Notes: generated from the sequence alone by a model not told the origin. 64,000 nt of DNA from an uncultured Acidobacteriota bacterium (GCA_963700315.1 CAVOXC010000011.1:288308-352307), one strand, 5' to 3'; shown: positions 4,034-59,004, counted from the stretch's first letter. Numbers and translations are program-made.

Positions 4034-4132
4034 CGCTCGGGCCCTCCGCTCCTCGTGCGCTTCGTTTCTTGCCGCGCATTCTCTACGACCGCGCGCCCGG
4101 AACCAAACTGCCGCCTCGCCCACTCCCTTCAT

Positions 4133-4232
4133 GTCGTCCTGAGCGTAGCGAAGGACCTGGCGTGGCGGGTGGGGAATCGCTGTCGGAGCTGCTTCAGGCG
4201 AGGGCGCAAGATCTTCACTTCGTTCAGATGAC
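4133..4232 (+). repeat. Copy A of a ~100-bp imperfect-palindrome (hairpin) element
   Basis: GTCGTCCTGAGCGtAGCGAAGGACC...GCGCAAGATCtTCACTTCGTTCAGATGAC. The arms are reverse complements of each other, and the same element recurs at 35578-35679 and 56338-56439 in the same orientation. Confidence 0.8.
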
Positions 4233-4461
4233 GGGGCGGCGTTCCGGCTGAGAGCGCGGGCCTGCGGAAGAAGTCAGCCGAACCGACGGCTGGCACCGGC
4301 GGGCGCGCCAGCTGACTCGGCCTGCGGCGCGCGTCGAGCGGATCTGGCTGCAGAGGCGAGGGCGCAAGATCATTCACTTCGTTCAAGATGACGGGGGCGG
4401 GCGTTCCGGGTGAGAGCGCGGGCCTGCGGAGAGACGTCGAGCCGAACCAATGGCTGGCACC
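4196..4461 (+). repeat. Two ~105-bp direct repeats (4196-4297 and 4354-4461)
   Basis: Each unit runs AGGCGAGGGCGCAAGATC.TTCACTTCGTTCA.GATGACGGGG..CGTTCCGG.TGAGAGCGCGGGCCTGCGGA...GCCGAACC..GGCTGGCACC. The second unit is the right arm of the hairpin element without its left arm. Confidence 0.8.
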
Positions 4462-35118: not shown

Positions 35119-35246
35119 CGAGCCGAGAACGAAGGGCTCCGGCACCCCTGCGGCACCCGGAGCGAGGACCTTATCGCTGCTCCCTTCCGGGCCTGACGAG
35201 GTTCGGAACCGTCCGATGCACAGGACCCGAGCCCTTCGTTCGCGGC
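35119..35246. repeat. Long-range inverted repeat (about 18-bp arms, ~85-nt loop) upstream of dnaX
   Basis: GCCGAGAACGAAGGGCTCCGG pairs with CCGAGCCCTTCGTTCGCGGC. Confidence 0.55.
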
Positions 35247-35293
35247 TCGCGCTCGGGGCATCGTATCGCGCTCTGGCGCCGTCGTGGACTGTC

Positions 35294-35543
35294 GGGCTCG
35301 CTCCGCTCGTTTTGGTTCGTGCTGATTCGGTTGTTGGGCGTCTCTGGTGGCGGGGCGGTGTGGGTGGGTCCCTTGCCTGCGGAACCGCCGTCCGCCTGGA
35401 GTCTCTTGGAGCGGCCGGCTGCGTTCGGTCTCGCGGCTCGCGCCTGCGGCGCTCGCATCGTTTCGCATGCGAGCCCTCAAGCTTCCTCCGGCAAGGGACC
35501 CACCCACGCCGCGTCTCGTTCCTGCCAGGGACCGACACAAGCC
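35294..35543 (+). repeat. X element, forward copy (~250 bp, contains a long internal stem-loop)
   Basis: About 90% identical by eye to the reverse complement of 56539-56788. The internal arms GTGGGTGGGTCCCTTGCC / GGCAAGGGACCCACCCAC enclose ~115 nt. Confidence 0.8.
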
Positions 35544-35577
35544 ACGAGGACTTGCGAGCTGGCCCTGCAACCCCCCT

Positions 35578-35679
35578 GTCGTCCTGAGCGCAGCGAAGGA
35601 CCTTGCGTGAGCGGCGAGGAACCGCCCTCCTCGCTTCTTCAGGCGAGGGCGCAAGATCCTTCACTTCGTTCAGGATGAC
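35578..35679 (+). repeat. Copy B of the ~100-bp hairpin element
   Basis: GTCGTCCTGAGCGCAGCGAAGGACCTTGCG...CGCAAGATCCTTCACTTCGTTCAGGATGAC with an inner hairpin GCGAGGA/TCCTCGC. Nearly identical to 56338-56439. Confidence 0.85.
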
Positions 35680-35712
35680 ACGCGAAGGCGCTCACGCTGA
35701 CAAGGCACGGTG

Positions 35713-35937
35713 AGCCTGTGTCGCTCCCTGGCACGAACGAGACGCGTGGAGCGGTCCCTTCTCTGCGGAGGAAGCTTCGTAGCCCGCCCCCCAGGCAAGA
35801 CGAAGCGAGCGCCAGCGAGCTTCGCGGGCGGGCGGAGCGCAGGCCCGAGCAGTCCCGCCCAACCGAGGGCCGGTTCCTGCGCAGAGAAGGGAGCGCTCCA
35901 CGCACCGCCACCAGAGACGCCCACCAGAGAATCAGCA
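35713..35937 (-). repeat. X-family element, diverged copy in inverted orientation relative to 35294-35543
   Basis: It shares both termini with the 56.5-kb copy (TGTGTC.C.CCCTGGCA.GAACGAGACGCG ... CCGCCACCAGAG.CGCCCA.CA...GAATCAGC). Its internal stem uses different, mutually complementary arms (GTGGAGCGGTCCCTTCTCTGCG / CGCAGAGAAGGGAGCGCTCCAC). Confidence 0.7.
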
Positions 35938-36049
35938 CGAACCGGGAAATCGCGGAGCGAGTCGCCCACCCGGGGGCCGGTTCCTGCGCAGAGAAGGGAA
36001 CGCTTCTCGCATCGCCACCGGAGACTCCCGGCGGCTGAATTCGCAGGAC

Positions 36050-36592
36050 GTGGACAAGCGGGTGCCACAGCGTTGGCAGAGTCGGCTAGAATGCGGCGCC
36101 TTGGTGGGCCGGGGTGCCGATTCGGAGGTCGATCGGCGGTGGATGGAGGCCGCCCTCGAGGAGGCGCGCGCCGCTGCCGCCAAGGGCGAAGTGCCGGTCG
36201 GCGCCGTCGTGGTTTCGGCCGAAGGTGAGTTGCTCGGCCGCGGCCGCAACCGGCGCGAGACGGATCAGGACCCGCTGGCGCATGCAGAGTTGCTTGCGAT
36301 TGCCGCGGCCGCGCGCCGCCTCGGCAGCTGGCGGCTGGTCGGCGCGACGCTCTATGTGACGCTCGAGCCCTGCGCGATGTGCGCGGGGGCGCTGGTTTCG
36401 AGTCGAGTCGAGCGGCTGGTCTACGGCGCCGCGGACCCGAAAGCGGGGTTCTGTGGCTCGTTGGGCGACCTGGTGCGGGACCCGCGGCTGAATCACCGGT
36501 TGGCGGTGACCGCGGGGGTCGCGGAGGAGGAAGCCGCGGCGCTGCTTCGGGAGTTCTTCGCGGGGCTCCGGCGCGGCGGTGGAGTTCTTTGA
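36050..36592 (+). CDS. tadA: tRNA-specific adenosine deaminase
   Basis: WMEAALEEARAAAAKGEVPVGAVVV, HAELLAI and TLEPCAMCAGAL form the CDA zinc motif. The true start is probably TTG 36101, GTG 36104 or ATG 36143 rather than GTG 36050. Confidence 0.88.
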   Translation: MDKRVPQRWQSRLECGALVGRGADSEVDRRWMEAALEEARAAAAKGEVPVGAVVVSAEGELLGRGRNRRETDQDPLAHAELLAIAAAARRLGSWRLVGATLYVTLEPCAMCAGALVSSRVERLVYGAADPKAGFCGSLGDLVRDPRLNHRLAVTAGVAEEEAAALLREFFAGLRRGGGVL

Positions 36593-55962: not shown

Positions 55963-56064
55963 CAAGCGGACGTGTTCCAGTTGAACAGAAGCAACGACTA
56001 AAGGTGGCCGAGGCGCTCTCCCATCTCGTGGCACTGGCGCAATGCCGCGCGGAGGCGACTCGAG

Positions 56065-56254
56065 CGAGCCCGAGCGCGAGGCGATCGGGCCGGCGATCCA
56101 CGAGCCGCGCGTCCACGAGCTCCCCGAGATCCTCGCCTTCAAGGTCTGCAAGGGGGAGAAGAACTTCCTCGCCTGGATCGAGGGCTCGCTCGACAAAGAC
56201 GCCCCCTTCTCCGACGAAGAAGAACGCGACGGCCTCGACGAGACGAACTACTAG
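56065..56254 (+). pseudogene. Orphan duplicate of the cutA 3' end
   Basis: 56115-56254 equals 50470-50609 with 5 mismatches (the stop changes from TGA to TAG). More diverged homology continues upstream to about 56065. The N-terminal two thirds of CutA are missing. Confidence 0.85.
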
Positions 56255-56337
56255 AGCGCCTGCTCGCCGATCGTGGGTGCCCCCGCGCCAGCTTGCCTGG
56301 CGTTCTGCCGGCGGCGCCCTCTCCGCGCCCCATTCAT

Positions 56338-56439
56338 GTCGTCCTGAGCGCAGCGAAGGACCTTGCGTGATCGGCGAGGAGCCACCGTCCTCGCTTCTTC
56401 AGGCGAGGGCGCGAGATCCTTCACTTCGTTCAGGATGAC
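56338..56439 (+). repeat. Copy C of the ~100-bp hairpin element
   Basis: Nearly identical to 35578-35679. Confidence 0.85.
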
Positions 56440-56535
56440 AGTGGGCAGGCGTTCAGGGTGACAACGGGCGCAGTTCCGGCTGACATCGGGGGGCGTTCAG
56501 GCTGACGTCGGAGGGCAATCAGGCCGACATCGAGC
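56440..56535 (+). repeat. Four tandem ~23-bp units
   Basis: The units GGCGTTCAGGGTGACAACGG, GCAGTTCCGGCTGACATCGG, GGCGTTCAGGCTGACGTCGG and GCAATCAGGCCGACATCGAG. Single related units follow hairpin copies A and B. Confidence 0.65.
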
Positions 56536-56538
56536 AGG

Positions 56539-56788
56539 GGCTTGTGTCTCGCCCTGGCAGGAACGAGACGCGGTGTGCGTGGGTGCCTTGCCGGAGGAAG
56601 CTTGAGGGCTCGCATGCTGAAGGATGCGAGCGCCTGAGTAGCGGCCGCGAGACCGAACGCAGCCGGCCGCTCCAAGAGACTCCAGGCGGACGGCGGTTCC
56701 GCAGGCAAGGGACCCACGCACGCCGCCCCGCCACCAGAGGCGCCCAACAACCGAATCAGCGTGTATTCAGAACGAGCGCAGCGAATCC
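56539..56788 (-). repeat. X element, inverted copy
   Basis: Reverse complement of 35294-35543 at about 90% identity by eye. Confidence 0.8.
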
Positions 56789-58707: not shown

Positions 58708-59004
58708 GCGGGAGCTCCTCGCTCGAACGGTCCCGAAGGACCCCGGAAAGCGGGCAGTGTAGCAAGGGCGCGCCCAGTCTCCAGCCGAAGGAGCGCACGA
58801 TGCCGGCGCGCAACCCCACCCAGAACCTGGATCGCGACCTCGGGCGGTGCGTGGGGTTCGATGCGCAGACGGCGGGGGGTCCCCATTCCCTGATTGGCTG
58901 CGATCATCATGGGGTTCCCCGCAAGCAGCGAGCCCCACGTGCCGCACGAGGCCAGCGCCGCGGCGTGGCAACGGGGCCACCGCCGTGAGCGCTAGGATCG
59001 ACCC

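What the first reader, a model, noticed from the sequence alone, without database searches (positions are those of the whole stretch)
35294..35937. Composite palindromic non-coding structure: two ~240-bp X elements in inverted orientation around a 100-bp hairpin element, with apparent compensatory stem changes
The ~940-bp gene-free region between dnaX and tadA contains X (35294-35543, forward), the hairpin element (35578-35679), one 23-bp motif, and a diverged X (35713-35937, inverted). A third X lies at 56539-56788. It is about 90% identical to the first and has the same hairpin, 23-mer and inverted-X order. All X copies share their termini. The long internal stem differs between them: GTGGGTGGGTCCCTTGCC / GGCAAGGGACCCACCCAC in two copies and GTGGAGCGGTCCCTTCTCTGCG / CGCAGAGAAGGGAGCGCTCCAC in the third. 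The arm sequence changed but pairing was kept. Preservation of structure rather than sequence argues for a functional RNA or DNA secondary structure, or for a MITE-like element whose hairpin is needed for mobility. No credible ORF is present.
Basis: seen in the sequence. Interest (0 to 1): 0.6.

Follow-up and report, generated by a model that had tools for sequence, protein, structure and literature searches.

The report
Hairpin-bearing mobile repeat doublet, species-specific
The palindromic structure between dnaX/ffs and tadA is one copy of a non-coding, selfish DNA repeat family found only in this acidobacterial genome; its long hairpins are kept in the lineages that spawn new copies and decay afterwards, and the copies sit in the same intergenic slots that hold an unrelated repeat family in the sister species.

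Summary
X1 (35294-35543, +), a 104-nt hairpin element, one 22-mer and an inverted, diverged X2 (35713-35964) form one composite. A third X (56539-56788) follows a hairpin and a 22-mer array.

The genome holds 35 full X copies plus about 10 fragments, in four subfamilies. All ten doublets pair subfamily A with B or C, 3' ends inward. The outer ~50 nt act as terminal inverted repeats.

Every copy keeps a 30-bp stem. 17 of 30 stem columns changed on both sides between subfamilies and still pair. Copy-specific changes mostly break pairs. That is the pattern of a transposon, not of a host RNA gene.

There is no Rfam hit, no Pfam hit and no promoter. X was not found in 299 other genomes of the order, 185,000 species genomes or JGI metagenomes.

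Relatives have empty sites and no target duplication is visible. No partner transposase with X ends was found.

Unexpectedly, 9 of 12 X slots hold unrelated repeats in the closest relative. Those repeats belong to a tyrosine (Y1/HUH) transposase element.

Best reading: a REPIN- or MITE-like non-autonomous element, probably moved as hairpin DNA.

The scan has noted similar palindromic repeat families in other Acidobacteriota, on other DNA.

The parts
35294..35543 (+). X1, subfamily A arm of the composite. The outer terminal inverted repeat is 35294-35344 (GGGCTCGCTCCGCTCG...GGGCGTCTC). The 30-bp stem arms are 35355-35384 and 35483-35512. The conserved inner block is 35511-35543.
35544..35576 (+). 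C-rich linker that travels with the left end of the hairpin element.
   Evidence: the same linker variants appear in other copies.
35577..35680 (+). HP, a 104-nt nested hairpin with TGTCGTCC...GGATGACA ends. It belongs to its own dispersed family of about 45 loci. 19 of those loci lie within about 100 nt of an X 3' end.
35681..35712 (+). One 22/23-mer, which reiterates the last ~14 nt of HP plus a spacer, followed by a short linker. Other copies carry 1-5 such units.
35713..35964 (-). X2, subfamily B arm, inverted so that its 3' end faces the centre. Its stem arms include 35747-35768 and 35880-35901.
35965..36048 (-). Truncated B-like X fragment (model positions 24-110) abutting the outer end of X2.
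   Evidence: (family D7).
56337..56440 (+). Second HP copy, 95% identical to the first. It is the distal end of a half-element.
56427..56532 (+). Tandem array of 22-nt units (4.8 copies) between HP and the third X.
56539..56788 (-). Third X, subfamily A, 90% identical to X1. It is a singlet without an inverted partner.

Best explanation
The structure is one copy of a non-autonomous mobile DNA family, a 460-755-bp 'doublet'. Two ~250-bp X arms lie in inverted orientation, always one A arm and one B or C arm. They surround a centre made of a 104-nt hairpin element plus 22-mer repeats. In subfamily D the second arm is replaced by a different module (Y) and a short inverted end.

Shown:
- The family has 35 full copies.
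- The outer ~50 nt are inverted repeats.
- Copies are insertions relative to related species.
- No target duplication is visible.
- Each arm keeps a 30-bp, almost purely Watson-Crick stem. Its sequence differs between subfamilies through paired changes. Changes private to single copies mostly break it.

Inferred:
- The doublet is the replicating unit, and singlets and internally deleted forms are its remnants.
- The hairpin is needed in the source copies at the DNA level.
- Given the lack of target duplications and the sharing of insertion slots with the Y1-transposase-associated repeats of the sister species, the element is most likely moved as single-stranded hairpin DNA. The likely agent is a tyrosine HUH transposase of the RAYT/TIRYT kind. 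The genome has one such gene at contig C17:27029-27361.

Alternatively the element lands in or replaces resident repeats of that system.
For: Family and anatomy:
- 35 full copies and about 10 fragments, in four subfamilies.
- 10 of 10 doublets are A plus (B or C). That has a probability of about 1e-3 if arms paired at random.
- The centre lies in either orientation, 5 versus 5.
- Inverted outer ends, and deletion derivatives between two GCGTCTC direct repeats.

Stem:
- 949 of 1050 cells are Watson-Crick.
- 17 of 30 columns have both-side changes that keep pairing, against 4-7 in slid controls.
- 957 cells pair, against a mean of 775 (maximum 850) when 3' arms are swapped among copies.
- Within subfamilies, broken cells far outnumber compensated ones: A 35 versus 3, B 33 versus 3.

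Non-coding and uncatalogued:
- No Pfam match in any crossing ORF.
- No Rfam match.
- No sigma-70 promoter and no terminator signal above chance.

Insertion status:
- Empty sites in relatives at six loci and in the ffs-tadA spacer.
- No target duplication at 13 elements or at the empty-site junctions.

Restricted range:
- No BLAST hit over the X ends or long stem in 40 relatives; two ~50-nt marginal hits (G014, G027) were not followed up.
- The X signature occurs 27 times here and 0 times in 36 other genomes of the family.
- No true match in 185,579 species genomes or in JGI metagenomes.

Slot sharing:
- 9 of 12 informative X slots hold Z and/or GGGGACACGTAC repeats in G011.
- 7 of 9 informative G011 Z loci map to X loci here. 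In most of these, flank homology runs to within about 4-15 nt of the element ends, up to 85 nt in a few.
- Those G011 repeats flank a Y1_Tnp gene in inverted arrays.

Precedent: in REPINs the doublet is the unit, singlets are remnants and compensatory changes are common (PMC3116915). Y1 genes flanked by inverted repeats (TIRtrons) are known in Acidobacteria (PMC3733652).
Against: - No transposase gene carries X ends. The three Y1_Tnp genes, one rve gene, one DDE_Tnp_1 gene and the IS110-family copies all lack X, HP or Y sequences nearby.
- The Y1 gene here is flanked by a different hairpin (AGGGACAGGCAC...). Its likeness to the inner X block (AGGGACCGACAC, 10 of 12) could be chance.
- Arms of 250 bp are about ten times longer than REPs.
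- No movement was observed. Copies differ by 6-26%, no X locus lies in the assembly's strand-variant contigs, and read data could not be consulted.
- The genome is 88% complete, so a partner element may be unassembled.
- Slot sharing could reflect a small set of permissive intergenic sites rather than a shared mechanism.
Confidence: 0.55

Rival explanations
1. X is a classical cut-and-paste MITE of a DDE transposon. The ~50-nt inverted ends are transposase binding sites. The autonomous partner has been lost or was not assembled. Target duplications are very short or have decayed.
For: Clear terminal inverted repeats and deletion derivatives. Multi-copy and intergenic. The genome is only 88% complete and repeats are often unassembled.
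Against: No target duplication at any of 13 elements or at the empty-site junctions. At 6-26% divergence a 4-9-bp duplication should mostly survive. No gene with X-like ends was found, and the only rve and DDE_Tnp_1 genes have none. There are no Tn3 or DDE_3 genes. A DDE mechanism does not explain why a 30-bp internal stem is kept, nor the slot sharing with Y1-associated repeats.
Confidence: 0.2
2. X is a multi-copy structured non-coding RNA gene or cis-regulatory RNA. The stem is kept by selection on the RNA in the host.
For: Strongly structured (z about -4.6). Stem changes between subfamilies are compensated. A.C cells outnumber G.T cells on the + strand, 30 versus 8, so the complementary strand would read them as G.U wobbles.
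Against: No Rfam match, even at E up to 10. No promoter or terminator. Both orientations occur in every doublet. Private mutations break pairs far more often than they are compensated. Only 0.8% of stem cells are G.T, which is atypical of RNA helices. The family exists in one genome only, and relatives lack it at the same loci. Shuffled sequences show the same strand bias in folding energy.
Confidence: 0.07
3. The paired stem changes are not selected at all. They arise mechanically by template switching between the two arms of a quasi-palindrome during replication or repair ('palindrome correction'). The element is still selfish DNA, but the hairpin has no role in its spread.
For: The stem is Watson-Crick on both strands with almost no wobble pairs. 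Several changes are G-C to C-G transversions, which have no wobble intermediate. Hairpin-flanked deletions between direct repeats show that the palindrome does misalign. An earlier follow-up report of this scan reached this reading for another acidobacterial repeat (e1-2202190; unchecked).
Against: If correction were frequent, private mutations in single copies should also be corrected. Yet broken cells outnumber compensated ones by about ten to one within subfamilies. Stem length (30 bp) and position are identical in four subfamilies that differ at half the stem columns. That looks like a constraint.
Confidence: 0.15

Closest known systems
REPINs (REP doublets forming hairpins) with their RAYT transposases (Bertels & Rainey 2011, PMC3116915)
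   Same: An inverted doublet is the replicating unit. Singlets are remnants. Compensatory changes keep the hairpin. The elements are non-coding and intergenic with no target duplication, and the family is lineage-specific.
   Different: Each arm is about 250 bp with its own 30-bp stem and branched interior, not a 20-40-bp REP. The two arms are different subfamilies. The centre is itself a separate hairpin element plus tandem 22-mers and lies in either orientation. No Y1 gene flanked by X was found.
TIRtrons: TIRYT (Y1) genes flanked by long inverted repeats, with moderately abundant gene-less repeat families, notably in Acidobacteria (Di Nocera et al. 2013, PMC3733652)
   Same: Same phylum. 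This genome and its sister species G011 each carry such a Y1 gene flanked by inverted hairpins or arrays. G011's gene-less derivatives (arrays plus the Z core) occupy the same slots as X.
   Different: The X ends do not match the repeats flanking the Y1 gene of this genome. The only likeness is a 10-of-12 match to the inner X block.
Bacterial MITEs such as Correia, ERIC/IRU, RUP and bcr1
   Same: Small, non-coding and multi-copy, with terminal inverted repeats, able to fold into long hairpins, and showing insertion polymorphism between relatives.
   Different: No target-site duplication and no related insertion sequence. Length is 460-755 bp, at or above the usual size. The make-up is modular.
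BIMEs (bacterial interspersed mosaic elements) of enterobacteria
   Same: Mosaics of several repeat types (X, HP, 22-mers, Y) combined in a few recurrent orders, with alternating orientations.
   Different: The units are an order of magnitude larger. No relation to REP Y/Z motifs.

Membership tests
MITE (miniature inverted-repeat transposable element) | Short, non-coding and present in many copies | tested here: met
   35 full copies and about 10 fragments. No Pfam match in ORFs crossing the element. Whole elements are 460-755 bp.
MITE (miniature inverted-repeat transposable element) | Terminal inverted repeats | tested here: met
   The outer ~50 nt (GGGCTCGCTCCGCTCG...GGGCGTCTC) are found inverted at both ends of complete elements, including D-type and deletion forms.
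MITE (miniature inverted-repeat transposable element) | Target-site duplication flanking each copy | tested here: not met
   No direct repeat at the ends of 13 elements, nor at junctions compared with empty sites. Divergence of the spacers limits resolution to a few nucleotides.
MITE (miniature inverted-repeat transposable element) | An autonomous element with the same ends somewhere | tested here: not met
   No transposase gene lies between or beside X ends in this genome. Pattern scans of 185,579 species genomes and of JGI metagenomes gave only chance matches.
REPIN / REP-RAYT system | Inverted doublet of palindromic units that is over-represented relative to singlets and forms a hairpin | tested here: met
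   There are 10 convergent doublets among 28 A/B/C copies, all A plus (B or C). Singlets and deleted partners are present.
REPIN / REP-RAYT system | Units are short REPs (20-40 nt) with a GTAG or CGTC tag | tested here: not met
   Units are about 250 nt. CGTC occurs in the two GCGTCTC repeats that bracket the stem, but the architecture is not that of a REP (PMC3733652).
REPIN / REP-RAYT system | A cognate, usually single-copy Y1 (RAYT) gene flanked by the same repeat | tested here: not met
   The genome has three Y1_Tnp matches, none with X, HP or Y within 3 kb. The C17 gene is flanked by its own 36-nt hairpins.
IS200/IS605-type hairpin elements (PATEs) | No inverted ends, asymmetric left and right hairpins, insertion 3' of a fixed 4-5-nt target | tested here: inconclusive
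   No target duplication, which fits. But inverted ends are present and no conserved flanking tetranucleotide was seen. The X body is bracketed by GCGTCTC repeats, and short forms lack exactly one repeat plus the body. Bodies never occur outside the X context.
Known structured RNA families (Rfam 15) | Match to a curated covariance model | tested here: not met
   Nothing at gathering score in the window. Nothing credible at E up to 10 over 35200-36120. Nothing at E up to 1 in eight other X/Y loci.
IS110-family element or its non-coding RNA end | Sequence shared with the ends of the resident IS110-family copies | tested here: not met
   The IS ends (…CCCTATCAGGCCTCCGTCTGTC / …CAGATCCGTTAGGCGGC) are unrelated to X. 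X BLAST hits do not fall in the IS copies.

The most novel reading that the evidence does not exclude
X doublets are a giant form of REPIN: hairpin DNA replicators served by a Y1/HUH (TIRYT) transposase. On this reading, whole repeat families of this system replace one another in a fixed set of a few dozen intergenic slots. Sister species would then carry unrelated sequences (X here, Z plus GGGGACACGTAC arrays in G011) at the same nucleotide positions. That would be turnover of selfish-DNA 'tenants' in conserved 'landing pads', which I did not find described in the papers I read.
Probability: 0.25. Interest if true: 0.65.

Novelty: new variant of a known kind. Interest (0 to 1): 0.45.

Why it matters
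On its own this is one more family of palindromic selfish DNA, in a poorly studied phylum. Two things make it more useful.

First, it separates cleanly where hairpin constraint acts. Paired changes are fixed between source lineages, while scattered copies decay. This is a simple signature for telling mobile hairpin DNA from true RNA genes in genome scans.

Second, X and the unrelated Y1-associated repeats of the sister species occupy the same slots, in the clearest cases to within a few nucleotides. This suggests one of two things. Either such elements home to resident repeats, or one transposase system can swap its cargo families. Both ideas can be tested with a handful of closer genomes and a laboratory excision assay.

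For annotation, it also explains long spurious ORFs and an 870-nt 'empty' spacer next to ffs and tadA.

Tried and rejected
- Rfam at gathering and permissive thresholds on the window and on eight other loci: nothing. G011's Z and Y copies also gave nothing.
- Degraded coding gene: no Pfam match in seven ORFs crossing the composite.
- Strand call from folding energy: the + strand folds better (-137 versus -123 kcal/mol), but so do its shuffles, so this is uninformative.
- Within-subfamily covariation: not above shuffles.
- Co-phylogeny of A arms and their partner arms: Mantel r 0.33, p 0.12. The tree is star-like and uninformative.
- Autonomous partner. A gene bracketed by X-end fragments (C4:448671-451176) is an ordinary M1 peptidase. 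A 5-kb interval between two X copies holds an RND pump and other genes. The IS110-family copies, three Y1 genes, one rve gene and one DDE_Tnp_1 gene have no X-like ends.
- Strain-level presence/absence inside the assembly: no X locus lies in the redundant contigs.
- Exact-motif scans of genome and metagenome collections: only single chance matches. The X profile either did not recognise them or matched only the ~25-nt motif itself.
- Hidden homology between X and G011's Z: none by profile search in either direction.
- A shared 10-11-nt GCTCCGCTCG motif at the ends of G011 inserts: dismissed as common GC-rich sequence in the wrong orientation.
- Sigma-54 promoter inside the conserved TGGCAC block: by eye, the -12 element is absent.

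Full report
WHAT IS THERE

The spacer between ffs and tadA holds six pieces in order:
- X1 (35294-35543, +).
- A C-rich linker.
- A 104-nt nested hairpin, HP (35577-35680).
- One 22/23-mer.
- X2 (35713-35964, -), 68% identical to X1.
- A truncated third X piece (35965-36048, -).

ffs is the SRP RNA gene (35133-35232, minus strand). tadA starts near 36130. The layout rests.

A second locus in the window has three parts. HP lies at 56337-56440. A 22-nt tandem array lies at 56427-56532 (4.8 copies). An inverted X lies at 56539-56788, 90% identical to X1.

THE FAMILY

The window is contig C11:288308-352307 of a 4.9-Mb, 70% G+C, 17-contig assembly. Earlier notes of this scan place it in the Thermoanaerobaculia-type Acidobacteriota. 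I did not check that myself.

A profile search finds 35 full-length X copies and about 10 fragments. They fall into four subfamilies: A (12), B (12), C (4) and D (7).

All subfamilies share three blocks:
- An outer block of about 50 nt (GGGCTCGCTCCGCTCG...GGGCGTCTC).
- A 30-bp stem.
- An inner block (GCGTCTCGTTCSTGCCAGGGA...ACAAGCT).

The ~110 nt enclosed by the stem differ between subfamilies, and each version forms its own hairpins.

Ten loci carry two X copies in convergent orientation, 44-258 nt apart. All ten combine one A with one B or C. With 12 A and 16 B/C copies, this has a probability of about 1e-3 under random pairing.

The centre (HP plus 1-5 22-mers) lies in either orientation relative to the A arm, five times each way. 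Nearly every A, B or C copy has an HP at its inner end. 19 of about 45 HP loci in the genome lie within about 100 nt of an X 3' end.

D copies are followed by a different ~130-nt module, Y, and then by a short inverted copy of the outer block.

Some partners are reduced in one of two ways. In some, the sequence between two GCGTCTC direct repeats that bracket the stem has been lost. In others, only the last 17 nt remain. Such deletions are expected at a hairpin flanked by direct repeats.

So the outer blocks behave as terminal inverted repeats of a 460-755-bp element, and the whole doublet behaves as the unit.

THE STEM

When anchored on the universal GGAA/TTCC at its tip, the stem has the same length in all subfamilies.

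Over all 35 copies the 1050 stem cells break down as follows:
- 949 Watson-Crick.
- 8 G.T.
- 30 A.C.
- 63 other mismatches.

17 of 30 columns show changes on both sides that keep pairing, against 4-7 when the partner is slid by 1-3 positions. 957 cells pair. When 3' arms are dealt to other copies, the mean is 775 and the maximum 850 over 1000 permutations.

A and B differ at about half the stem columns. By my own reading of the subfamily consensus arms, 11-12 of those are paired changes. B versus C has 4-5 paired changes and C versus D has two. Several are G-C to C-G swaps, which cannot pass through a wobble intermediate.

Within a subfamily the picture reverses. Double changes (A 2, B 3, C 4 and D 7 pairs) do not clearly exceed shuffles, whose maxima are 4, 4, 3 and 8. 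Private changes mostly break pairs. In A there are 35 broken cells against 3 compensated; in B, 33 against 3.

My reading is that pairing was required in the lineages that produced new copies, and that copies decay once inserted. This is the pattern of a mobile element, not of 35 host RNA genes.

The near absence of G.T pairs fits pairing at the DNA level. It could also arise from mechanical arm-to-arm correction. I keep that as a rival for how the stem is maintained. However, the tenfold excess of uncorrected private mutations speaks against frequent correction.

A.C cells outnumber G.T cells on the strand I call + (30 versus 8; about 18 versus 7 distinct events by my own tally of the per-column table). 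The other strand would therefore read them as wobbles. This is weak evidence and may only reflect which variants were propagated. Folding energies give no strand call, because shuffles show the same bias.

NOT AN RNA FAMILY ON RECORD, NOT CODING

- Rfam finds only ffs and two tRNAs in the window.
- Nothing credible appears over the composite at E up to 10, and nothing in eight other loci.
- Seven ORFs crossing the composite have no Pfam match.
- No sigma-70-type promoter was found, and only one weak terminator-like site, as expected by chance.
- The tool for public sequencing runs was closed, so transcription could not be examined.

INSERTIONS, WITHOUT VISIBLE TARGET DUPLICATION

In 11 of the 12 same-genus relatives that match this locus, the ffs-tadA spacer is about 130 nt. 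G011 is the exception and is discussed below.

I joined the two flanks of 12 other X elements and searched the closest relatives. The flanks are contiguous, or carry no insert of comparable size, at these loci:
- C2:108368 in G011, G004 and G013.
- C3:676088, C11:224484 and C1:122933 in G011, each with no large insert.
- C2:396569 in G013 and G004.
- C13:12916 in G013.

Neither the 13 element ends nor these junctions show a direct repeat of the target. Spacer divergence limits the resolution to a few nucleotides.

RANGE

- BLAST with X1 finds nothing beyond two ~50-nt marginal hits (G014, G027; not examined further) in 40 relatives.
- The signature GGGYGTCTC-N155-185-CGTCTCGTYC occurs 27 times here. 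It occurs 0 times in the 36 other genomes of the family. In 263 further genomes of the order it gives 12 single chance matches.
- The 21-nt inner block gives only isolated matches in 185,579 species genomes and in JGI metagenomes. The X profile either does not recognise them or matches only the ~25-nt motif itself.
- Copies differ by 6-26% within the A and partner-arm sets, so the burst is not recent.

NO PARTNER GENE

- No transposase gene lies between or beside X ends.
- A gene bracketed by X-end fragments is an M1 peptidase.
- A 1.73-kb IS110-family element is present in at least six copies. Its ends are unrelated to X.
- The single rve and DDE_Tnp_1 genes have no X-like ends.
- No Tn3-type or DDE_3 genes were found.
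- Three Y1_Tnp matches exist. The one at C17:27029-27361 is a RAYT/TIRYT-like gene flanked by 36-nt hairpins, AGGGACAGGCAC...TGCCTGTCCC.
- That arrangement is the 'TIRtron' described for Acidobacteria by Di Nocera et al. (PMC3733652). None of the three has X, HP or Y nearby.

THE UNEXPECTED PART: SHARED SLOTS

G011 is the closest relative, with flanks mostly 79-92% identical. It lacks X but has its own repeats.

One is a ~170-nt core I call Z. It has at least 15 copies, all but one confined to G011. It is flanked by arrays and hairpins of GGGGACACGTAC. That motif has 64 hits in G011 against 8 here, and 4-5 in G004 and G013. The same arrays, inverted, flank a Y1_Tnp gene in G011 (C203:7820-8140). 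Z elements therefore look like gene-less derivatives of that TIRtron.

Of 12 X slots that can be judged in G011, 9 hold Z and/or these arrays:
- The window's ffs-tadA spacer (Y plus Z).
- C11:186562, C13:12916, C13:603114 and C6:33356.
- C11:224484, C11:3085, C1:122933 and C2:396569.

Of the other three slots, one holds a different 43-nt palindrome and two are empty. This rests.

In the reverse direction, 7 of 9 informative G011 Z loci map onto X-family loci here and 2 are empty. Flank homology mostly runs to within about 4-15 nt of the element ends, though at a few ends the gap is 28-85 nt. At C13:12916 both inserts begin 3-4 nt after the stop codon of the same upstream gene and end at the same point.

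By my grouping of the motif hits, G011 has roughly 35 such loci. Assuming some 3,000 intergenic regions (not counted), chance cannot explain this.

X and Z share no detectable similarity by profile search. G000 keeps one relic Z next to a Y copy (C2:400219-400337). Y itself occurs in five species of the genus. The outgroups G004 and G013 are empty at the three slots where I could check.

There are two possible explanations. The slots may have been filled in the common ancestor of G000 and G011, with their content later replaced. Or both families may be drawn to the same rare feature, most simply resident repeats of the Y1 system.

HOW IT MOST LIKELY WORKS

Shown: X is a non-coding, multi-copy, inverted-end element. 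It is an insertion relative to relatives, has no visible target duplication, and has a hairpin kept in its source lineages.

Inferred: the doublet is copied as a unit. This parallels REPINs, where doublets replicate, singlets are remnants and hairpin changes are compensated (PMC3116915).

Four observations fit the enzymes that act on hairpins in single-stranded DNA, the Y1/HUH transposases:
- The lack of target duplication.
- The structural rather than sequence constraint.
- The mild strand asymmetry.
- The slot sharing with a Y1-associated family.

The inner X block (AGGGACCGACAC) resembles the arm of the hairpin flanking the C17 Y1 gene (AGGGACAGGCAC) at 10 of 12 positions. I estimate a chance probability of about 0.02-0.1 for this, so it is only a lead.

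I put the general statement (non-autonomous mobile DNA) at about 0.85. I put the Y1-driven mechanism at about 0.35, a DDE-type MITE with a missing partner at about 0.2, and a host RNA gene at under 0.1.

COMPARISON AND NOVELTY

X works like a REPIN or a long-armed MITE. However, it fails the defining tests of both families. For a MITE, it has no target duplication and no partner insertion sequence. For a REPIN, it has no short REP unit and no cognate RAYT flanked by it.

It is best filed as a new variant of palindromic non-autonomous DNA. This scan has already reported several palindromic repeat families with compensated stems in other Acidobacteriota, on other DNA. The kind is therefore not rare.

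Three features are unusual here: the 250-bp structured arms of two different subfamilies, the reversible centre, and above all the slot sharing with an unrelated family in the sister species.

Noticed in passing
window 58842-58958 (-); also G000 C13:12972-13092, C14:12594-12802, C2:400312-400504 and others: Y is a ~130-nt structured repeat (GCAGCCGGG...GTTCGATGCGCAGACGACGGGGGGTCCCCA...GGGGTTCCTCGCAAGCAGCGAAT...CTGGCCGGC). It has about 15 copies here, and further copies in G011, G008, G004 and G005. It is therefore older and more widespread than X. It has no Rfam match. It lies next to X(D) here and next to Z in G011.
   Followed up: partly
G011 (L048:1080-1350, L134, L137-L150): Z is a ~170-nt repeat core with at least 15 copies in the sister species. 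It has a hairpin that covaries between copies (GGACCGACAGGTCC versus GGCGCGACAGCGCC). It is flanked by GGGGACACGTAC arrays, the same arrays that flank a Y1_Tnp gene at G011:C203:7820-8140. It has no Rfam match.
   Followed up: partly
G000 C17:26917-27610: A TIRtron: a ~200-aa RAYT/TIRYT-like Y1 transposase gene (HVHLIV motif) flanked by two 36-nt hairpins, AGGGACAGGCAC...TGCCTGTCCC. Only about 12 copies of that motif exist in the genome. Two of them lie at X-family loci: one inside the centre of an X doublet (C6:37064) and one beside an X-fragment/HP locus (C13:636659).
   Followed up: partly
G000 C3:333194-334919, C2:404369-406109, C2:408007-409732, C6:460-2190, C6:6370-8092, C6:8557-10280: A 1.73-kb IS110-family insertion sequence (Pfam Transposase_20) in at least six copies at 86-92% identity. 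Its ends are ...TAAC|CCCTATCAGGCCTCCGTCTGTC and ...CAGATCCGTTAGGCGGC. Several copies are clustered. The reading frame of the C3 copy looks disturbed upstream of the Transposase_20 domain.
   Followed up: partly
G000 C4:448671-451176: X-end fragments in inverted orientation bracket a 769-aa secreted M1-family peptidase gene. The orthologous slot in G011 holds a Z element and no gene. The gene may have been captured between X ends, or inserted into a doublet.
   Followed up: partly
window 56063-56440: The half-element (HP, 22-mers, X3) begins 77 nt after the duplicated cutA 3' end. That duplication marks the right border of the 5.6-kb islet noted earlier in this scan. A repeat slot and an islet junction therefore coincide.
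   Followed up: no
G000 whole assembly (C2:1-18136; C6/C14, C3/C7, C2/C16, C9/C1, C4/C5): The assembly is partly redundant. Several contig pairs overlap at 86-99% identity, which suggests strain variants. The first 18 kb of C2 match themselves in reverse, which is probably an assembly artefact.
   Followed up: no
window 4132-4235 and 4354-4413: A more diverged HP copy (68%) and a solo HP right arm, each followed by a different ~100-nt shared tail. The HP family therefore has variants not linked to X.
   Followed up: no
G011:C279 near 10400 (L155): At the slot where G000 has a D-type X element, G011 has a 43-nt perfect palindrome (GGTGACAGTTACCTGCGAC AAGAA GTCGCAGGTAACTGTCACC) of yet another kind.
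   Followed up: no
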